64,000 nucleotides of DNA from an uncultured Bacilli bacterium (GCA_934130545.1 CAKOYD010000003.1:15430-79429); one strand, 5' to 3'; shown: positions 22,251 to 55,670, counted from the first letter of the stretch. The notes: a model not told the origin generated them from the sequence alone. Made by a program: numbers and translations.

Positions 22251-22652
22251 TTACCTCTTCTTAGCTTTCTTCTTACCATAATTTTGAAGTTCTTCTAAAC
22301 TTATTCTTCTTATTTCATGGTAACCACAGTTAGTACATACTCTTTCATATACAGCATATTCTTCATAATGACTATCACCTTCATAATCCTTTACAAAAAT
22401 ACTTGTATTTTCACCACGTTGCCATGGTTCAAAAGTATGACCATTTGCTCTACATTCACCCCATTTTATATCATGATATTTAGTAGATATTCTATCATTT
22501 AGTTCACTAACACTTTGTTTAACCATTTTAATCTTAGTAATATCTGCGGTACTATATATATTATCTAATATAATACCCATTAAAGTAATAGTATCTTCTT
22601 CATCTAAATTAGATAATAGTACTTTAAACATGTTTTTATGTTCTTCAGTCAT
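22251..22652 (-). CDS. hypothetical protein with a C-terminal Cys pair (CTNCGYHE)
   Basis: 133-aa ORF directly downstream of the surface-protein gene, with a basic tail. Confidence 0.5.
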   Translation of the reverse strand: MTEEHKNMFKVLLSNLDEEDTITLMGIILDNIYSTADITKIKMVKQSVSELNDRISTKYHDIKWGECRANGHTFEPWQRGENTSIFVKDYEGDSHYEEYAVYERVCTNCGYHEIRRISLEELQNYGKKKAKKR

Positions 22653-22704
22653 AAACCCTCCTTAGCTATATATTATAAATAAATTATTAAAAAAATACAA
22701 CTAT

Positions 22705-22740
22705 AAATGAAAATACCTTAGATATTACTATCTAAAGTAT
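22705..22740 (-). terminator. intrinsic terminator after the surface-protein gene
   Basis: 12-bp stem with 1 mismatch (ATACCTTAGATA/TATCTAAAGTAT), a 4-nt loop and a TTTCATTT tail on the minus strand. Confidence 0.7.
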
Positions 22741-22744
22741 TAAT

Positions 22745-24544
22745 TTATTTAATTATAAAGGGATCTGTTGCAGTGCCTGATCCAGTAAATTCTGTTTTAG
22801 GTTTAAGTGAAACAGACGGACGCACCCCATTAGAGGTAGTGACGAGCCTGCTGCCCAAGCTCCCAGTAGAGCCCGAGGTGAACTCGTAAACATCCGTGCC
22901 ACCGAAGATATACGGCGACAAAGCCCAAAAATATTGACCTGTATATAAGTAAAATGATGAATTAGAAGCACCACCCCTTGCTCCAGCATACATTATTTCA
23001 TCAACGGTTAACAAACCGACCGGATAATCTAAAGCTCCATTTCCATTACTTGCCTCAACTGTAAACTTATCATTAGTATTCGTGCATACTAATGTTGGTT
23101 TGTAACCACTATACATTCTTTGACGACTATTGAAATATAAACCGTTACTATTACTATAATAATCTTTATTCCAACCACTTGTACTCAATCCTACATCATA
23201 ACTTCGATCATTGCAAAATACTGTATCTTCTAATTGCGATGTATAACTAGTCATATTTTTTTCATACCAAGTATCTATTTTTTTCTTTATTGTTGAATCA
23301 TTTTCATTTGTTGAATTATCTAACATTTCTTTTAATATATCTAAGTGATTCTTCCCACCACTTAATTCAAAGTAATAAGATGTTGAACTACTTGTGTCAT
23401 GAACATAATTTACTTTTTCACAAGTATCGCTTGAAGTAAAGCAAGTATAGTGATATTTACTAGCAATTGTACTATATTCTGTACTCCAATTACCTATATC
23501 CGTTAATGTATAAGTATCAGTTAATGTGTATGTACCATTAGTATATGTTATATCATTACCAAATACTATTGAGCCACTTAATGATGACATAGTTTTACTT
23601 GAATAAGTATATCTAGTTCCGTACATATATCCAACATCAGCTGGTGAATTAAAATTTGAATTAAATGCCGAACTACCTATTGTAGTATCACTACCTGTAT
23701 TATTACATTGTCCATCAGTTGGTACTCCATCATATATTAATTTAACCCCACCTGTCTCAGTAGTTCTCACTATTCTCCAGCAATAATTTGCAAATATTAA
23801 GTGATTGTCTACGTTTCCTCGGTAGTAATATACTGGTTTACCACTATCCGTATCTGTTGTCATATATATACCATTAGTATTTGACTGGGATGAAAAATAT
23901 ATAGTAGTTGTAGTATCAGCATTATTCTTCATATAACCATATAGTGTTGTATCTTTAATATTAATTACTGCTTCTGTAGTTAGATTAGGGTTATTACTAC
24001 TAGAGCCTTTTAGTTTAACAGAGATATTACCGGTAAAATATTCTTCCTCTGATTCATCTAACCAGATATATAAATAGTATGTTTTAGTATAAGTATTACC
24101 TGATTTAGTTATATTATCATAATCATTCTTTATTAACCATATATCACTATTAGCAGTTTTATCTTTAAATGAGCCATTGGCTATTAAACCTTTAGTACAA
24201 CTATTAGCACTTGTTGATAAAGCATATCTAATAGTATCTTTTTTATAGGTATCACTTAATGCTGTAATATTAAGACCAATACTAAATGATACTTTACCGC
24301 CTGAAGTGTTAGTGGCTTTAGCTACTATAGTCTTTTTAATAGCACTGTCTCCAGTACATTCAGATGGTGCAAAAGATACATTTTCACTAGTTCCACCACT
24401 AATAGTCATTGTTAAATTACCTGCTTTAATTTGAGTTACATTAATAGCATTAGAAATAGTAGTAACTAAAGCAAACGTTCCACCAATACATAATACTATT
24501 ATAAATATTATTAATAAAGTTATATATAATTTTTTATGTTCCAT
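22745..24544 (-). CDS. secreted/surface protein: TasA/camelysin-type (SipW-class) signal peptide and N-domain plus a C-terminal lectin-like module
   Basis: Start set to MEHKKLYITLL (ATG 24544). GGTFALVTTISNAINVTQIKAGNLTM resembles the SipW-cognate signal and AGTLDL-type strand. Paralogue of 53896..55383. The C-terminus contains the compositionally aberrant patch at 22811-22921. Confidence 0.7.
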   Translation of the reverse strand: MEHKKLYITLLIIFIIVLCIGGTFALVTTISNAINVTQIKAGNLTMTISGGTSENVSFAPSECTGDSAIKKTIVAKATNTSGGKVSFSIGLNITALSDTYKKDTIRYALSTSANSCTKGLIANGSFKDKTANSDIWLIKNDYDNITKSGNTYTKTYYLYIWLDESEEEYFTGNISVKLKGSSSNNPNLTTEAVINIKDTTLYGYMKNNADTTTTIYFSSQSNTNGIYMTTDTDSGKPVYYYRGNVDNHLIFANYCWRIVRTTETGGVKLIYDGVPTDGQCNNTGSDTTIGSSAFNSNFNSPADVGYMYGTRYTYSSKTMSSLSGSIVFGNDITYTNGTYTLTDTYTLTDIGNWSTEYSTIASKYHYTCFTSSDTCEKVNYVHDTSSSTSYYFELSGGKNHLDILKEMLDNSTNENDSTIKKKIDTWYEKNMTSYTSQLEDTVFCNDRSYDVGLSTSGWNKDYYSNSNGLYFNSRQRMYSGYKPTLVCTNTNDKFTVEASNGNGALDYPVGLLTVDEIMYAGARGGASNSSFYLYTGQYFWALSPYIFGGTDVYEFTSGSTGSLGSRLVTTSNGVRPSVSLKPKTEFTGSGTATDPFIIK

Positions 24545-24654: not shown

Positions 24655-25287
24655 TTAATTAGTAATATTAATAGTGCGATATGCTACTTTAGTAATATCA
24701 TTACTATTAGTTACATAATAAACAATTGTATAAGTACCTGGTGTACCATAATCTATATAGTTAACTATTTGTACTAAATCATTTAAATCTCCTTCTACTG
24801 AGTCAACAGCAGAATATCCTTCTTCTTTATATATATCAGTACTTTTAACATTAACATTATTACTACCTTTTAATATTAAAGTAAGTAAATTATCCGTCTT
24901 AACAACATTAACTTTTCTTTCTAAAGTTACTTCTTTATTATTTATAGTAAGAGTATATATAACTTTATAACTACCTACTTTAGTAGTATCAACATTGCCA
25001 TCAACACTAACTAGATTAGCAATATTATTATTATCTTTATCACTAGCCTTATATCCTATGTCAACATAACTATCATTTAACCTAACATTCATTTCACTAG
25101 GTCCAACTAATTCAAAGGTATATTTATTATTTTTCTTACTATTATTAATTAATACTATAATAAGTATTAAAATAATTATTCCTAGTAAGATACCTCCTAT
25201 TATAAATAAGTTCTTTTTAGTTAGTAAGTTAACTAATGAACTAGTCTTCTTAACTTCTTCATCATCTTCATTATGTCCAAAATACAT
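24655..25287 (-). CDS. membrane-anchored protein with two Ig-like (DUF5011-type) repeats
   Basis: N-terminal TM segment, then a twice-repeated pattern ...GY.A.D...G.L...V...G.VD....G.Y.I.Y... Confidence 0.55.
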   Translation of the reverse strand: MYFGHNEDDEEVKKTSSLVNLLTKKNLFIIGGILLGIIILILIIVLINNSKKNNKYTFELVGPSEMNVRLNDSYVDIGYKASDKDNNNIANLVSVDGNVDTTKVGSYKVIYTLTINNKEVTLERKVNVVKTDNLLTLILKGSNNVNVKSTDIYKEEGYSAVDSVEGDLNDLVQIVNYIDYGTPGTYTIVYYVTNSNDITKVAYRTINITN

Positions 25288-52286: not shown

Positions 52287-52930
52287 ATCACTACTTATTT
52301 ATCATATGGCTATTAATATAGTTAACTTTGCGTCTTAGGTCAAGTAGGGTTTCCCTATTCTCTGCATAGACGTTACCATCTATGTGGTTCCCCTTTAAAG
52401 AGAATAATATAAAGTCGCCTATTATATGACTTGATTGCCACTTAGTACACACCATAATCCTATATTATGACACTCTAGGAGTTTTCCTCACCAATTGTTT
52501 ATTAGTTATTCTTTTTTGCAATGATAGTTTCATGTTGCAATACTTAAAATGGTTATAGCTATTAACATATTATAAGCTGATCAGCAATTCCCTATCATCA
52601 CGCAAGACAAGCTACACTACTCGTAAATTCAATACATAGTAGGTTTAATCCTAAGTCATAGTATTTCGTCAACTGTTGTGTATAGATCTACTACAAGATT
52701 AGGTCTCCATGAAAATTGGAACGGGTATCGTATGCCATTACGGTCGCCCAACTTTCTTACCACTCAGCACTCGCCCCAAATTGGGCATAAGAAGCAAGCA
52801 CCAAGTGTTTCACAGTTGTGCTCTTTAACGGATTTTTAGGCCCGTCTTCGTAATAAACTTAATTGACTAGAATAATGTGCCACACGTACTTGTAATAATA
52901 CCATATTTTGTTCATTTTGTCAAATTTTAG
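52287..52930 (-). ncRNA. large structured non-coding RNA, OLE-like (about 640 nt)
   Basis: The 735-bp gap (52245-52979) has no ORF of 60 aa or more on any frame, in a window that is otherwise more than 90% coding. GC is visibly higher than in the flanks. It contains many local hairpins, an extended -10 upstream and a terminator downstream, and it is followed by the oapA-like gene. Ends are approximate. Confidence 0.6.
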
Positions 52931-53895: not shown

Positions 53896-55383
53896 TCATA
53901 CTATAAAGGGATCTGTGGCGGTGCCTGTTCCTCCTGATACTGATATTCCTGGTTTAAGTGATATTACAGGTCTTGATGCATTCTTATAATATACTCCGCC
54001 ATCTGTTCCTTTTAAAATACCACTGTTGCCTATGTAAAGTTCATTGGAAACCGAACTAGTAAAATCATATGGTGACATAGTAAAATACCAAGCACCACTT
54101 CCTAAATAAAATCTAGCATCTACTTTGCCAATAACTGCCCCAGCATATACCATTTCATCAGCCGTAATTAATGCAACTGGATATGTTAAATTACCATTTC
54201 CATTATTTATATCCACCGTGAATCTATCTTTTAAATTTTTACATTTTAATGTTGGCGTTTTATTTACCTCTAATCTAGCTTTTGCTGCAAAGTTTAATGT
54301 TGAGTCACTAGTTGTATAACTTCTATCATTACAAAATACTGTATCCTCTAGTTTGTCTGTATAATTTGTCATATTATTTTTATACCAATTATCTATCGAC
54401 TTTTTTATTGTTGAGTCAGTTATGTTTGCTGCATCATCAATACTACTTCCGTACATATATCCTACATATTTTGCATTATCTCTGTTTGAATTAAATTCTG
54501 ATGTTGCTATTGCAGAATTACCTCCAGTATTATTGCATTGCCCGCTAGATGATACACCATCGTATATTAATTTAACTCCCCCTGTTTCTGTGGTTCTTAT
54601 TATTCTCCAACATTTATCTGCAAATATTACTCTATTATTTACATTACCGCGATAATAATATACTAGCATACCACTATCTGTATCCGTAGTCATATAAATA
54701 CCATTGGTGGCAGCTTCATCAGATGTTTTACTGAAATCAACACTAGTAGTTTTATTAGCGGCACTTTCTATTTTATAATATAAAGTACCTGAGCTTGCCG
54801 TTATGCCTGCAACAGTCTTTAAACTTGGATTATTACTAGTTGTCCCCTTCATTTTTACTGATATACTTCCTGATAGATTTTGTGTTTCCATTTCATCCAT
54901 CCAAATGTATAAATAGTATGTTTTAGTAAATGAATTACTAGTTCTTGTTATATCATCATAATCATTCTTTATTAACCATATATCACTACCTTGAGTCTTG
55001 TCTTTGAAACTACCTCCGGCAACGATATCTTGCATACAACTAGAACTATTAGTAGTTAGTGCATATCTCATAGTTTCTCTTTTAAAACTATCTGATAATG
55101 TTACTATACTCATACCTATACTAAATGAGACATTACCTCCTGACGTATTATTAGAGGTTGCAACTATTTTCTTTTTTATGGCATACTCACTAGTACATTT
55201 AGCCGGCATAAAAAATACATTTTCATTTCCTCCACCATCGATAGTCATCGTTAAATTACCTGATTTAATTTGAGTAATATTTGTTGCGGTCACACTTGTT
55301 GTTAAATAAGCAAAAGTTCCTCCAATTCCTAACATTACTATCGATAAAATAGTTAACATAATAAGTAAGTTTTTTCTTTTCAT
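53896..55383 (-). CDS. secreted/surface protein, paralogue of 22745..24544 (TasA-type signal plus lectin-like C-terminal module)
   Basis: GGTFAYLTTSVTATNITQIKSGNLTM. Long collinear identity blocks with the paralogue include GIYMTTDTDSG..VYYYRGNV, CWRI.RTTETGGVKLIYDG, DTVFCNDRSY and TGTATDPFI. Confidence 0.7.
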   Translation of the reverse strand: MKRKNLLIMLTILSIVMLGIGGTFAYLTTSVTATNITQIKSGNLTMTIDGGGNENVFFMPAKCTSEYAIKKKIVATSNNTSGGNVSFSIGMSIVTLSDSFKRETMRYALTTNSSSCMQDIVAGGSFKDKTQGSDIWLIKNDYDDITRTSNSFTKTYYLYIWMDEMETQNLSGSISVKMKGTTSNNPSLKTVAGITASSGTLYYKIESAANKTTSVDFSKTSDEAATNGIYMTTDTDSGMLVYYYRGNVNNRVIFADKCWRIIRTTETGGVKLIYDGVSSSGQCNNTGGNSAIATSEFNSNRDNAKYVGYMYGSSIDDAANITDSTIKKSIDNWYKNNMTNYTDKLEDTVFCNDRSYTTSDSTLNFAAKARLEVNKTPTLKCKNLKDRFTVDINNGNGNLTYPVALITADEMVYAGAVIGKVDARFYLGSGAWYFTMSPYDFTSSVSNELYIGNSGILKGTDGGVYYKNASRPVISLKPGISVSGGTGTATDPFIV

Positions 55384-55421: not shown

Positions 55422-55476
55422 ATAAAAAAACTACGATAAAAAGAGTCTAATCCCTTAAACTCTCTATATCGTAGTT
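55422..55476 (-). terminator. long interrupted hairpin with U-run in the leader of 53896..55383
   Basis: 10-bp outer stem AACTACGATA/TATCGTAGTT and 5-bp inner stem AGAGT/ACTCT, followed by T7 on the minus strand. Confidence 0.6.
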
Positions 55477-55501
55477 ATTATCTTTTAAACAAACAAGTGT
55501 A

Positions 55502-55558
55502 TTATTTAGCCCCCCCAAGTAAACTTAGAGTTAACATGTTACTATAATTTCTTTTCAT
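55502..55558 (-). CDS. possible 18-aa leader/small peptide (MKRNYSNMLTLSLLGGAK)
   Basis: AAAGGAG lies 10 nt upstream of the ATG. Sits between a near-consensus promoter and the terminator hairpin. Very short, so speculative. Confidence 0.25.
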   Translation of the reverse strand: MKRNYSNMLTLSLLGGAK

Positions 55559-55579
55559 AATTTTTTAACTCCTTTCTGG

Positions 55580-55593
55580 CGAACGTTTGTTCT
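55580..55593. promoter_or_regulatory. Cheo-box-like palindrome CGAAC-GTTT-GTTCT (possible LexA site)
   Basis: Matches the GAAC-N4-GTTC core of the Firmicute LexA operator. A single occurrence that could be chance. Confidence 0.2.
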
Positions 55594-55641
55594 TTACTTG
55601 TGAAGAAAAACTTGCTTGTTTATTTCTCTTACTATAATTAA

Positions 55642-55670
55642 ATTATATAACAATTCTGGTTTTTGTGCAA
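55642..55670 (-). promoter_or_regulatory. putative sigma-A promoter (TTGCAC-17 nt-TATAAT)
   Basis: On the minus strand the -35 TTGCAC is at 55665-55670 and the -10 TATAAT at 55642-55647, with an exact 17-nt spacer. Confidence 0.55.

What the first reader, a model, noticed from the sequence alone, without database searches (positions are those of the whole stretch)
22811..22921. 111-bp adenine-depleted, GC-rich patch at the C-terminus of a surface protein: DGR-variable-region-like, but no RT or template in the window
Composition of the patch. 37 consecutive codons (minus strand, LSPYIFGGTDVYEFTSGSTGSLGSRLVTTSNGVRPSV) have a composition foreign to this genome. By my hand count 63/111 bases are G+C (57%) and only 15 are A (13.5%) on the coding strand, while T stays near 30%. 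None of the 37 codons ends in A, or none of 41 if the four preceding codons are counted. Every remaining A is at codon position 1 or 2. Codons such as GGC, ACG, TCG, CCG, GGG, CTC and AGG are otherwise rare here, and the flanking codons revert at once to A/T-ending ones. As a by-product the patch opens a spurious 78-aa ORF in another frame (22753-22989). Comparison with the paralogue. The paralogue (53896-55383) has a same-length SPY...SLKP segment built from ordinary AT-rich codons. Interpretation. Selective loss of A, but not T, confined to ~110 bp at the extreme C-terminus is what diversity-generating retroelement variable regions look like (template A becomes N; AAY-type design). The patch lies between an aromatic-x-x-SP motif and a VRP motif of a lectin-like module. 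Its 3' end is G/C-rich (GGGGTGCGTCCGTCTG), which is IMH-like. A GGATC-N13-GATCC inverted repeat follows at 22761-22783 and is absent from the paralogue. Counter-evidence. I found no reverse transcriptase, Avd or template repeat in these 64 kb. A trans-acting DGR elsewhere, a fossil VR, or a short gene-conversion/HGT patch from a GC-rich donor all remain possible.
Basis: partly seen in the sequence, partly recalled or inferred. Interest (0 to 1): 0.72.

Follow-up and report, generated by a model that had tools for sequence, protein, structure and literature searches.

The report
Stand-alone DGR variable region, surface protein
The G+C-rich, adenine-poor 111-bp patch is the variable region of a diversity-generating retroelement (DGR) target gene in an uncultured gut Clostridia bacterium: relatives have the full mutagenic cassette, but this 64-kb window has no template or reverse transcriptase.

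Summary
Window 22811-22921 (- strand) is 57% G+C with 15 A and no A-ending codon. It is the most G+C-rich 111-nt stretch in a 27% G+C window.

The DGR reading is supported by evidence from outside the window:
- The gene belongs to a large, unannotated family of secreted proteins from human-gut Clostridia. The same C-terminal stretch is hypervariable across the family.
- In one family cluster the gene is followed by a 123-bp template repeat, a divergent Avd and a DGR-type reverse transcriptase.
- There, 51 of 55 variable-region/template mismatches fall on template adenines, and 14 near-identical proteins carry 14 different variable regions.
- The window's patch has the same length, frame, scaffold and composition as these active regions.
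- Its differences from sister copies fall on codon positions 1 and 2, not 3.

The window has no template, RT or Avd, and neither recovered template is its cognate. Its closest relatives look frozen in population data.

Verdict: a DGR-written variable region (about 0.9). Whether a remote cassette still serves it or it is orphaned is unresolved, roughly even. It is a new member of a known kind, of moderate interest.

The parts
22745..24544 (-). DGR target-family gene, 599 aa from the ATG (the mechanical ORF from an upstream TTG runs to 24607). It has an N-terminal hydrophobic signal/anchor helix, a beta-sandwich region, and a large C-terminal unit ending in the variable region.
   Evidence: ORF. 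3325 homologues, none with a Pfam domain. AF2 model pLDDT 82, with residues ~200-599 mostly >90. The paralogue has a weak SipW-type signal hit.
22817..22927 (-). Variable region (VR) as defined by the family scaffold: TGG GCT TTG TCG CCG ... GGG GTG CGT CCG (WALSP...GVRP), 37 codons.
   Evidence: A profile of known VRs and TRs hits window 22931-22802 at E=1.7e-32, the only hit in the window. Composition equals that of active VRs. The codon-position pattern is inverted. The scaffold is shared with L005, L006, L007, L017 and L019.
22805..22828 (-). G/C-rich 3' end of the VR and the following conserved bases (GGGGTGCGTCCGTCTGTTTCACTT). It sits where IMH lies in the active cassettes, whose VR GGGTGGGCGCCCTGTCGTTTCAC pairs with TR GGGTGGACGCCCTGTATTTTCAC.
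   Evidence: Alignment of VRs and TRs. Function as IMH is inferred, not tested. The stretch also encodes the conserved G-V-R-P-S-V-S-L.
22761..22783 (-). GGATC-N13-GATCC inverted repeat inside the conserved GSGTATDP codons. It is probably incidental.
   Evidence: Present. Not used in the minimum-energy fold, z = -1.6. Found in L005 and L017, but absent from L006, L007 and the active cluster 2 targets.
22753..22989 (-). Spurious 78-aa ORF in another frame, opened by the lack of A (and so of stop codons) in the patch.
53896..55383 (-). Paralogue without a variable region. Its equivalent segment is 34% G+C with 13-15 A-ending codons and is 2 codons longer. By position it is orthologous to the L006 target, which does carry a fresh VR.
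   Evidence: No hit with the VR/TR profile.

Best explanation
The patch is the variable region (VR) of a diversity-generating retroelement (DGR) target gene.

Mechanism (established knowledge of DGRs):
- A template repeat (TR) is transcribed.
- A dedicated reverse transcriptase, working with Avd, copies it into cDNA and misincorporates opposite template adenines.
- The cDNA replaces the VR at the 3' end of the target gene.

This design explains the composition. Residues meant to vary are encoded as AAC/AAT in the TR. Scaffold residues use adenine-free codons (TTC, TCT, GGG, TTG, GTC, CGT, CCG). After A->N writing, the VR is therefore A-poor and, in a 27% G+C genome, strikingly G+C-rich, with no A at third positions.

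Shown: relatives of this gene are diversified in this way by an adjacent cassette, and the window's patch has every sequence property of such a VR.

Inferred: the window's own patch was written the same way, by a TR of a different ('GVRP') type that I could not recover.

The cassette is not within these 64 kb. Given a DGR origin, I put about 0.4 on a remote cassette elsewhere in the genome that still serves this VR, perhaps only occasionally. I put about 0.5 on an orphan VR, either because the cassette was lost or because the VR-bearing allele arrived by recombination.
For: 1. Composition. The patch is an extreme outlier. At G+C 0.58, A 0.14 and 0 A-ending codons it is indistinguishable from proven active VRs (0.56-0.60, 0.10-0.13, 0-1).

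2. Cassette in relatives. Cluster 2 loci L008-L012 have the target gene, then a TR 294 bp downstream (L008 12124-12246), then a 125-aa Avd-like ORF, then a 495-aa RT.
- VR/TR mismatches at TR adenines: 17/18, 19/21 and 15/16.
- The RT has IGAETSQ and YMDD aligned to IGSLTSQ and YMDD of its best PDB match, 8ub7 (E=1.7e-24).
- Avd hits NF033474 at 8.6e-5 and 1.7e-3 over the full profile.

3. Population data. 14 near-identical proteins have 14 distinct VRs. 16 of 17 A-containing TR codons vary, against 1 of 20 A-free codons (p=2e-8). Three further clusters are also active.

4. Codon positions. Window, L005, L006 and L007 differ in the VR at codon positions 1/2/3 by 0.32/0.33/0.14 per codon. Upstream the values are 0.21/0.22/0.32 and downstream 0.23/0.13/0.46.

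5. Shared scaffold. Window-type VRs on different backbones and loci share an identical non-A scaffold (0/66 changes in L005, L006, L017) with no RT within 10 kb. This implies a shared remote TR.

6. Second template. A second TR variant with the same architecture sits next to a 60%-identical RT.
Against: - The window has no TR, RT or Avd.
- No cognate TR was found. Both recovered TRs mismatch the window VR at non-A positions (21/82 and 21/76).
- A degenerate pattern of the VR 3' end found only one other VR (L007) in 185,579 species genomes, and nothing in viral contigs.
- No RT among the 120 best relatives shares a contig length with a window-type target.
- Window-type VRs are static within 90% clusters. 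P0116 is identical on about 16 contigs. P0001, the syntenic orthologue, is identical on 6 contigs, and the four contigs fetched came from four different samples.
- The window VR has 4 private changes at 66 scaffold sites.
- Alleles at this locus differ along the whole ectodomain (63-88% DNA identity), not only in the VR. Recombination therefore contributes to the differences.
Confidence: 0.9

Rival explanations
1. Refinement A (conditional on DGR origin): a live remote target. A single DGR cassette elsewhere in this genome supplies TR cDNA in trans to this VR and to other paralogues.
For: - The composition is undecayed in a strongly AT-biased genome.
- L005, L006 and L017 share an identical scaffold despite 20-30% flank divergence and have no RT within 10 kb. 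Several paralogous targets lie ~20 kb apart, and some proteins carry two VR-like patches.
- Remote targets are a recognised DGR configuration that RT-anchored surveys miss (PMC6602519; PMC8144416).
Against: - Window-type VRs look frozen across samples.
- No window-type TR or dedicated RT lineage was found.
- The window VR has 4 private scaffold changes.
Confidence: 0.4
2. Refinement B (conditional on DGR origin): an orphan or fossil VR. The patch was written by a DGR in an ancestor or in a donor allele. It reached this locus by allelic or paralogue recombination, or the cassette was lost. It is now evolving like ordinary sequence.
For: - Three alleles at this one locus (window, P0001/L001, L007) have near-identical flanks but 12-37% divergence across the ectodomain.
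- Their VRs differ by codon indels, which a single TR cannot produce.
- L001's VR is partly decayed (G+C 0.48, 3 A-ending codons) and invariant on 6 contigs.
- The only species-level MAG hit holds a VR but no TR-like match.
Against: - The window VR shows no AT-ward decay at all (0 of 37 A-ending codons).
- MAGs are incomplete.
- The search pattern required an exact match in the IMH-like end, where TRs can differ from VRs.
Confidence: 0.5
3. A short horizontally acquired or gene-converted patch from a G+C-rich organism, unrelated to any retroelement.
For: The compositional jump is abrupt and the flanks revert at once to AT-rich codons.
Against: - The same patch, in the same frame and position, occurs throughout a family confined to AT-rich gut Clostridia contigs.
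- The codon-position pattern is AAC->NNC-like.
- No match in phage records at DNA or protein level.
- The only hit in the genome collection is another AT-rich Clostridia MAG.
Confidence: 0.03
4. Chance, or selection on amino-acid content (a Gly/Ser/Thr-rich loop) that inflates G+C without any special mechanism.
For: The segment is rich in G, S and T, whose codons start with G/C-containing doublets.
Against: - Third positions are also depleted of A, at P=4e-8.
- The paralogue encodes a similar G/S/T-rich loop with ordinary AT-rich codons.
- Scaffold third positions are conserved far beyond the flanks.
Confidence: 0.02

Closest known systems
Bordetella phage BPP-1 DGR (mtd VR, TR, avd, brt), the prototype
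   Same: - The VR is the last ~110-130 bp of the target ORF.
- The TR encodes variable residues as AAC/AAT.
- VR/TR differences are adenine-specific.
- The RT has the IGxxxSQ and YMDD motifs, and its best PDB match is the 328-aa RT of entry 8ub7. That sequence matches my recollection of bRT, but the identity is not verified by a tool.
- An Avd-like four-helix protein is encoded just upstream of the RT.
   Different: - The system is chromosomal in Clostridia, not phage-borne. It has no relatives in viral contigs.
- The RT is 495 aa, with a C-terminal extension that gives a weak MutS_I hit.
- The target is a secreted cellular protein, not a tail fibre.
- In the window itself the cassette is missing.
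Cellular DGRs with several or remote targets (Treponema denticola TvpA family, Legionella LdtA; 'remote targets' in myDGR, PMC6602519)
   Same: - Surface or secreted cellular targets.
- Paralogous target genes scattered around the chromosome at a distance from the RT.
- RT-anchored surveys miss such VRs (PMC8144416).
   Different: - No cognate TR has been tied to any window-type VR here, so trans action is inferred from shared scaffolds only.
- The signal peptide and N-terminal domains differ. The comparison with Treponema and Legionella rests on my own knowledge.
DUF6273 (C-type-lectin-like) DGR targets of gut phages (Faecalibacterium prophages, PMC11792537; crAss-like 'tentaclins', PMC10743442)
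   Same: - The VR maps to the C-terminal end of the domain.
- The W..SP ... VRP..SL type of motif is shared.
- The best viral structure match of the AF2 model is a DUF6273 protein (E=4.8e-5, probability 0.97), and another is at rank 40.
   Different: - No family member reaches the Pfam DUF6273 model, even at E<=10.
- TM-scores are low (0.2).
- No solved C-type-lectin DGR target appears in the PDB fold search.
- The VR module is not an autonomous domain.

Membership tests
DGR (diversity-generating retroelement) system | A variable region at the 3' end of a target ORF, adenine-depleted relative to its surroundings | tested here: met
   22817-22927(-): 14% A against 38% in the rest of the gene, and 0 of 37 A-ending codons. 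The VR/TR profile hits at E=1.7e-32.
DGR (diversity-generating retroelement) system | A cognate template repeat: a ~100-130-bp copy differing from the VR almost only at TR adenines | tested here: not met
   None in the 64-kb window. None was recovered from genome, metagenome or viral collections. The two TRs found in relatives are not cognate (21/82 and 21/76 non-A mismatches). The rest of this genome could not be searched. In relatives the feature is met: 51 of 55 mismatches fall at TR adenines.
DGR (diversity-generating retroelement) system | A DGR-clade reverse transcriptase ([ILV]GxxxSQ motif, YxDD) in the same replicon | tested here: not met
   The window has no RT by tblastn (best E=1.9). 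The rest of the genome is not testable. In relatives the feature is met: RVT_1 at 3.3e-18, IGAETSQ and YMDD, best PDB match 8ub7.
DGR (diversity-generating retroelement) system | An accessory protein (Avd or equivalent) next to the RT | tested here: not met
   None in the window. In relatives, the 125-aa and 123-aa ORFs hit NF033474 (8.6e-5 and 1.7e-3) and Pfam bAvd-like (0.0068). Both hits are below the curated cutoffs but span the full profile.
DGR (diversity-generating retroelement) system | Between-strain variation confined to the VR and to adenine-derived positions | tested here: inconclusive
   The window's exact protein is not in the collection. The three alleles at its locus differ along the whole ectodomain. 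Against sister VRs, the differences show the position-1/2 bias and a conserved scaffold. In cluster 2 the feature is clearly met.
DGR (diversity-generating retroelement) system | An IMH element and a downstream hairpin/cruciform at the VR 3' end | tested here: inconclusive
   The G/C-rich end GGGGTGCGTCC followed by GTTTCAC is conserved with active VRs, but it also encodes conserved residues. No significant or conserved hairpin was found.
C-type-lectin-fold / DUF6273 DGR target domain | Sequence membership in Pfam DUF6273 or another CLec-type family | tested here: not met
   No Pfam family for the full protein at E<=0.1. None of 27 C-terminal modules hits DUF6273 at E<=10. The profile search against PDB sequences is empty.
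C-type-lectin-fold / DUF6273 DGR target domain | Structural similarity of the VR-bearing module to CLec or DUF6273 structures | tested here: inconclusive
   The top hit in BFVD is a DUF6273 protein (E=4.8e-5, TM 0.2). The PDB search has no hit at E<=0.001 and no CLec DGR target among the top 50. The isolated-module model failed (pLDDT 44).

The most novel reading that the evidence does not exclude
Uncultured human-gut Clostridia carry a chromosomal DGR lineage that works in trans on a whole paralogous family of SipW-type secreted proteins. Such genomes have several loci per genome, some proteins with two variable regions, and alleles shuffled by recombination. The window's VR would be one such remote target. 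Its template lies far away and so escapes RT-anchored DGR surveys.
Probability: 0.35. Interest if true: 0.55.

Novelty: new member of a known kind. Interest (0 to 1): 0.4.

Why it matters
- It shows that a purely compositional signature can flag DGR variable regions when the retroelement is absent from the contig. The signature is an A-poor, G+C-rich run with no A-ending codons at the 3' end of a gene in an AT-rich genome. Large surveys miss this situation by design (PMC8144416).
- It assigns a mechanism to a large protein family with no annotation: 3325 homologues and no Pfam domain. The family comes from uncultured gut Clostridia, including Hadza samples. It looks like a hypervariable ligand-binding surface or secreted protein family.
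- It shows active, frozen and VR-less copies coexisting within one family. That mix is useful material for studying how DGR targets are gained, served in trans and abandoned.

Tried and rejected
Searches for a template, RT or Avd that found nothing:
- Low-stringency BLAST, tblastn with real RT and Avd queries, and a VR/TR nucleotide profile against the window. The only hit is the VR itself.
- Degenerate VR-end pattern GTCNNTNNCTCTANTGGGGTGCGTCC: 0 hits in viral contigs, and 1 in the genome collection, which is a VR (L007), not a TR.
- TR-specific pattern in metagenome contigs: only another cluster 2 cassette (L012).
- Conserved TR-avd spacer motif, and RT relatives, in viral contigs: 0 hits.
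- RT-anchored look-ups (P0241, P0240, P0239): the contigs start at or just before the RT, so no TR is present. P0243 gave a TR of another type.
- Target-anchored look-ups of window-type VRs on long contigs (P0013, P0003, P0110, P0364): no RT within 10 kb.

Other dead ends:
- Phage collection, by DNA and by protein: no match, so no foreign donor is evident.
- Fold assignment. The PDB search is dominated by weak pilin-like hits to the N-terminal sandwich. The isolated C-terminal model was too poor to use. The profile search against PDB sequences was empty.
- The inverted repeat as a DGR recognition hairpin: rejected.
- I could not confirm from the literature tool that PDB 8ub7 is BPP-1 bRT. Only the aligned sequence and motifs are cited.

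Full report
**Observation**

The reverse complement of window 22811-22921 encodes LSPYIFGGTDVYEFTSGSTGSLGSRLVTTSNGVRPSV. Base counts are G34, T33, C29 and A15 (56.8% G+C). No codon ends in A, and all A sit at codon positions 1 or 2. The window averages 26.9% G+C per 111 nt (sd 6.3). The global maximum, 58.6%, lies at 22816-22926. Elsewhere in the same gene 36.9% of codons end in A, so 0 of 37 has P = 4e-8. The spurious 78-aa ORF and the GGATC-N13-GATCC repeat are both present. The only factual slip is that the paralogue's segment is 2 codons longer, not equal in length.

**The gene and its family**

The host gene (22745-24544, - strand, 599 aa) has no Pfam or NCBIfam domain. It has 3325 homologues, nearly all from ENA human-gut metagenome assemblies. 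The AF2 model is confident: pLDDT 82, with residues ~200-599 mostly above 90. It shows an N-terminal helix, a beta-sandwich and a large C-terminal unit whose last strands hold the patch. Across the family the stretch between W-A-L-S-P and (G)-V/L/I-R-P is hypervariable, while both flanks are conserved.

**The organism**

- L001-L004 are syntenic contigs of the same species. Their flanks are 97-100% identical to the window.
- L007 comes from a Hadza 'uncultured Clostridia bacterium' MAG and is a third allele at the same site.

**Proof of a DGR in relatives**

Within 90%-identity clusters, several family clusters vary almost only in the patch (P0118, P0024, P0034, P0039). Others are frozen.

For the P0118 cluster ('cluster 2'), loci L008-L012 show this order:
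- the target gene;
- a 123-bp repeat 294 bp downstream;
- a 125-aa ORF;
- a 495-aa RVT_1 protein.

The repeat translates as WALSPYNFNNWNANEFNLNSSGNFSNNNVTDSLGGRP. VR/TR mismatches fall on TR adenines in 17/18, 19/21 and 15/16 cases. Fourteen proteins carry fourteen different VRs. Sixteen of 17 A-containing TR codons vary, against 1 of 20 A-free codons (Fisher p = 2e-8).

The RT has IGAETSQ and YMDD, aligned with IGSLTSQ and YMDD of its best solved-structure match (8ub7, E = 1.7e-24). That match ranks ahead of group II intron and retron RTs. The small ORF hits the curated Avd model across its full length, below the cutoff, and also Pfam bAvd-like.

A second cassette has a 60%-identical RT and a TR of identical architecture, WSLSPYNFNNNNANEFNLNSTGNFSNNNVNNANGLRP. 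RTs that are 85-88% identical share contig lengths with the other active clusters. The lineage has no relatives in viral contigs and sits among housekeeping genes, so it is a cellular DGR.

**The window's patch is a VR of this family**

- A profile of known VRs and TRs hits the window once, at 22931-22802 (E = 1.7e-32). It finds no A-rich TR-like element there.
- The patch equals active VRs in length, frame and composition. The syntenic orthologue L001 looks partly decayed, and the window's paralogue is ordinary.
- The window, L005, L006, L007, L017 and L019 share a DNA scaffold: TGGGCTTTGTC.CCG ..T ..C TTC ... GAG TTC ..C TTG ..C TCT ... CTTG ..C ..C ..C ..C GTC ... TCT ... GGGGTGCGTCC. NNC/NNT codons are interleaved with it.
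- Pairwise differences inside the VR fall at codon positions 1/2/3 at 0.32/0.33/0.14 per codon. Upstream the values are 0.21/0.22/0.32, and downstream 0.23/0.13/0.46. This inversion is what repeated overwriting from an AAC-designed template produces.

Scaffold residues must use A-free codons, and variable AAC codons become NNC.

**What is missing, and the status of this VR**

The window has no RT, Avd or TR. Neither recovered TR is cognate: they show 21/82 and 21/76 mismatches at non-A positions, against 0-2 in true pairs. Pattern scans of genome, metagenome and viral collections, together with RT-anchored and target-anchored contig look-ups, did not recover a 'GVRP-type' TR.

Two lines of evidence pull in opposite directions.

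For a remote, recently active template:
- L005, L006 and L017 share an identical non-A scaffold (0/66 changes). Their flanks differ by 20-30%, and no RT lies within 10 kb.
- These genomes hold several paralogous targets ~20 kb apart. Some proteins carry two VR-like patches.
- The window VR shows no AT-ward decay.

For an orphan:
- Window-type VRs are static within clusters across many contigs and samples.
- The window VR has 4 private scaffold changes.
- The three alleles at this locus differ over the whole ectodomain (63-88% identity) and by codon indels in the VR. Recombination, not in-situ mutagenesis, therefore explains much of the allelic difference.

I put DGR origin at about 0.9. Given that, a live remote target is about 0.4 and an orphan about 0.5.

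**Rejected alternatives**

- Transfer from a G+C-rich donor is unsupported. The patch occurs at the same place throughout an AT-rich lineage. It has no match in phage records. Its only hit in the genome collection is another AT-rich Clostridia MAG.
- Amino-acid composition cannot explain the third-position statistics, nor the contrast with the paralogue.
- The inverted repeat is not a credible recognition hairpin.

**Fold**

DGR variable regions are reported to sit in C-type-lectin folds (PMC8144416). DUF6273 is a CLec-like DGR target domain of gut phages with the VR at its C-terminus (PMC11792537 and PMC10743442). Here the best viral structural match is a DUF6273 protein, but with low TM. There is no Pfam DUF6273 hit and no significant PDB fold match. 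The isolated module does not fold in silico. 'Lectin-like' is plausible but not established.

**Verdict**

This is a DGR variable region in an unannotated target family of gut Clostridia, found here without its cassette. It is a new member of a known kind and of moderate interest. The main open question is whether a distant cassette in this genome still serves it.

Noticed in passing
window 52290-52899 (-): A full-length OLE (ornate large extremophilic) RNA, RF01071, at 386 bits and E=4.7e-110. It lies downstream of the paralogue region in this 27% G+C gut Clostridia genome.
   Followed up: no
L006 11240-11365 and 12470-12591; L005 11622-11746 and 12601-12724: The long family members (884 and 929 aa) carry two VR-like, G+C-rich, A-poor patches, one internal and one C-terminal. 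This implies tandem duplicated modules and possibly two DGR-addressable sites per protein.
   Followed up: partly
window 22771-24240 versus L001 and L007: Three alleles of the target gene in one species have flanks 94-100% identical but an ectodomain only 63-88% identical at the DNA level. This is an allelic-replacement hot spot that extends well beyond the VR.
   Followed up: partly
L007 1363-2667: A 434-aa transposase-like ORF is inserted immediately downstream of the target gene, between it and sequence matching window 22633-22720.
   Followed up: no
window 53896-55383 and 55424-55653, versus L006 9745-12655: By position, the window's VR-less paralogue is orthologous to the L006 target, which carries a fresh VR. 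A VR can therefore be present or absent at the same chromosomal site in related genomes.
   Followed up: partly
L008 12247-12431; L012 ~2485-2510; L015 ~560-585; L014 1-60: A conserved motif, GTGAAACAGGTAG.TTCTATGGA, and further conserved sequence lie between the TR and avd in cassettes whose RTs are only 60% identical. This is probably the structured spacer part of the DGR RNA.
   Followed up: no
L008 12789-14276 (RT residues 360-402): The 495-aa RT is ~170 aa longer than the 328-aa RT of 8ub7. It gives a weak MutS_I (PF01624) hit in the extension, and the same hit is precomputed for many homologous RTs.
   Followed up: no
window 24655-25287 (-): The gene just upstream of the target encodes a 210-aa membrane-anchored protein with a Bact_surface_Ig-like domain (Pfam label from the syntenic L001). 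The locus therefore holds two adjacent envelope proteins.
   Followed up: no
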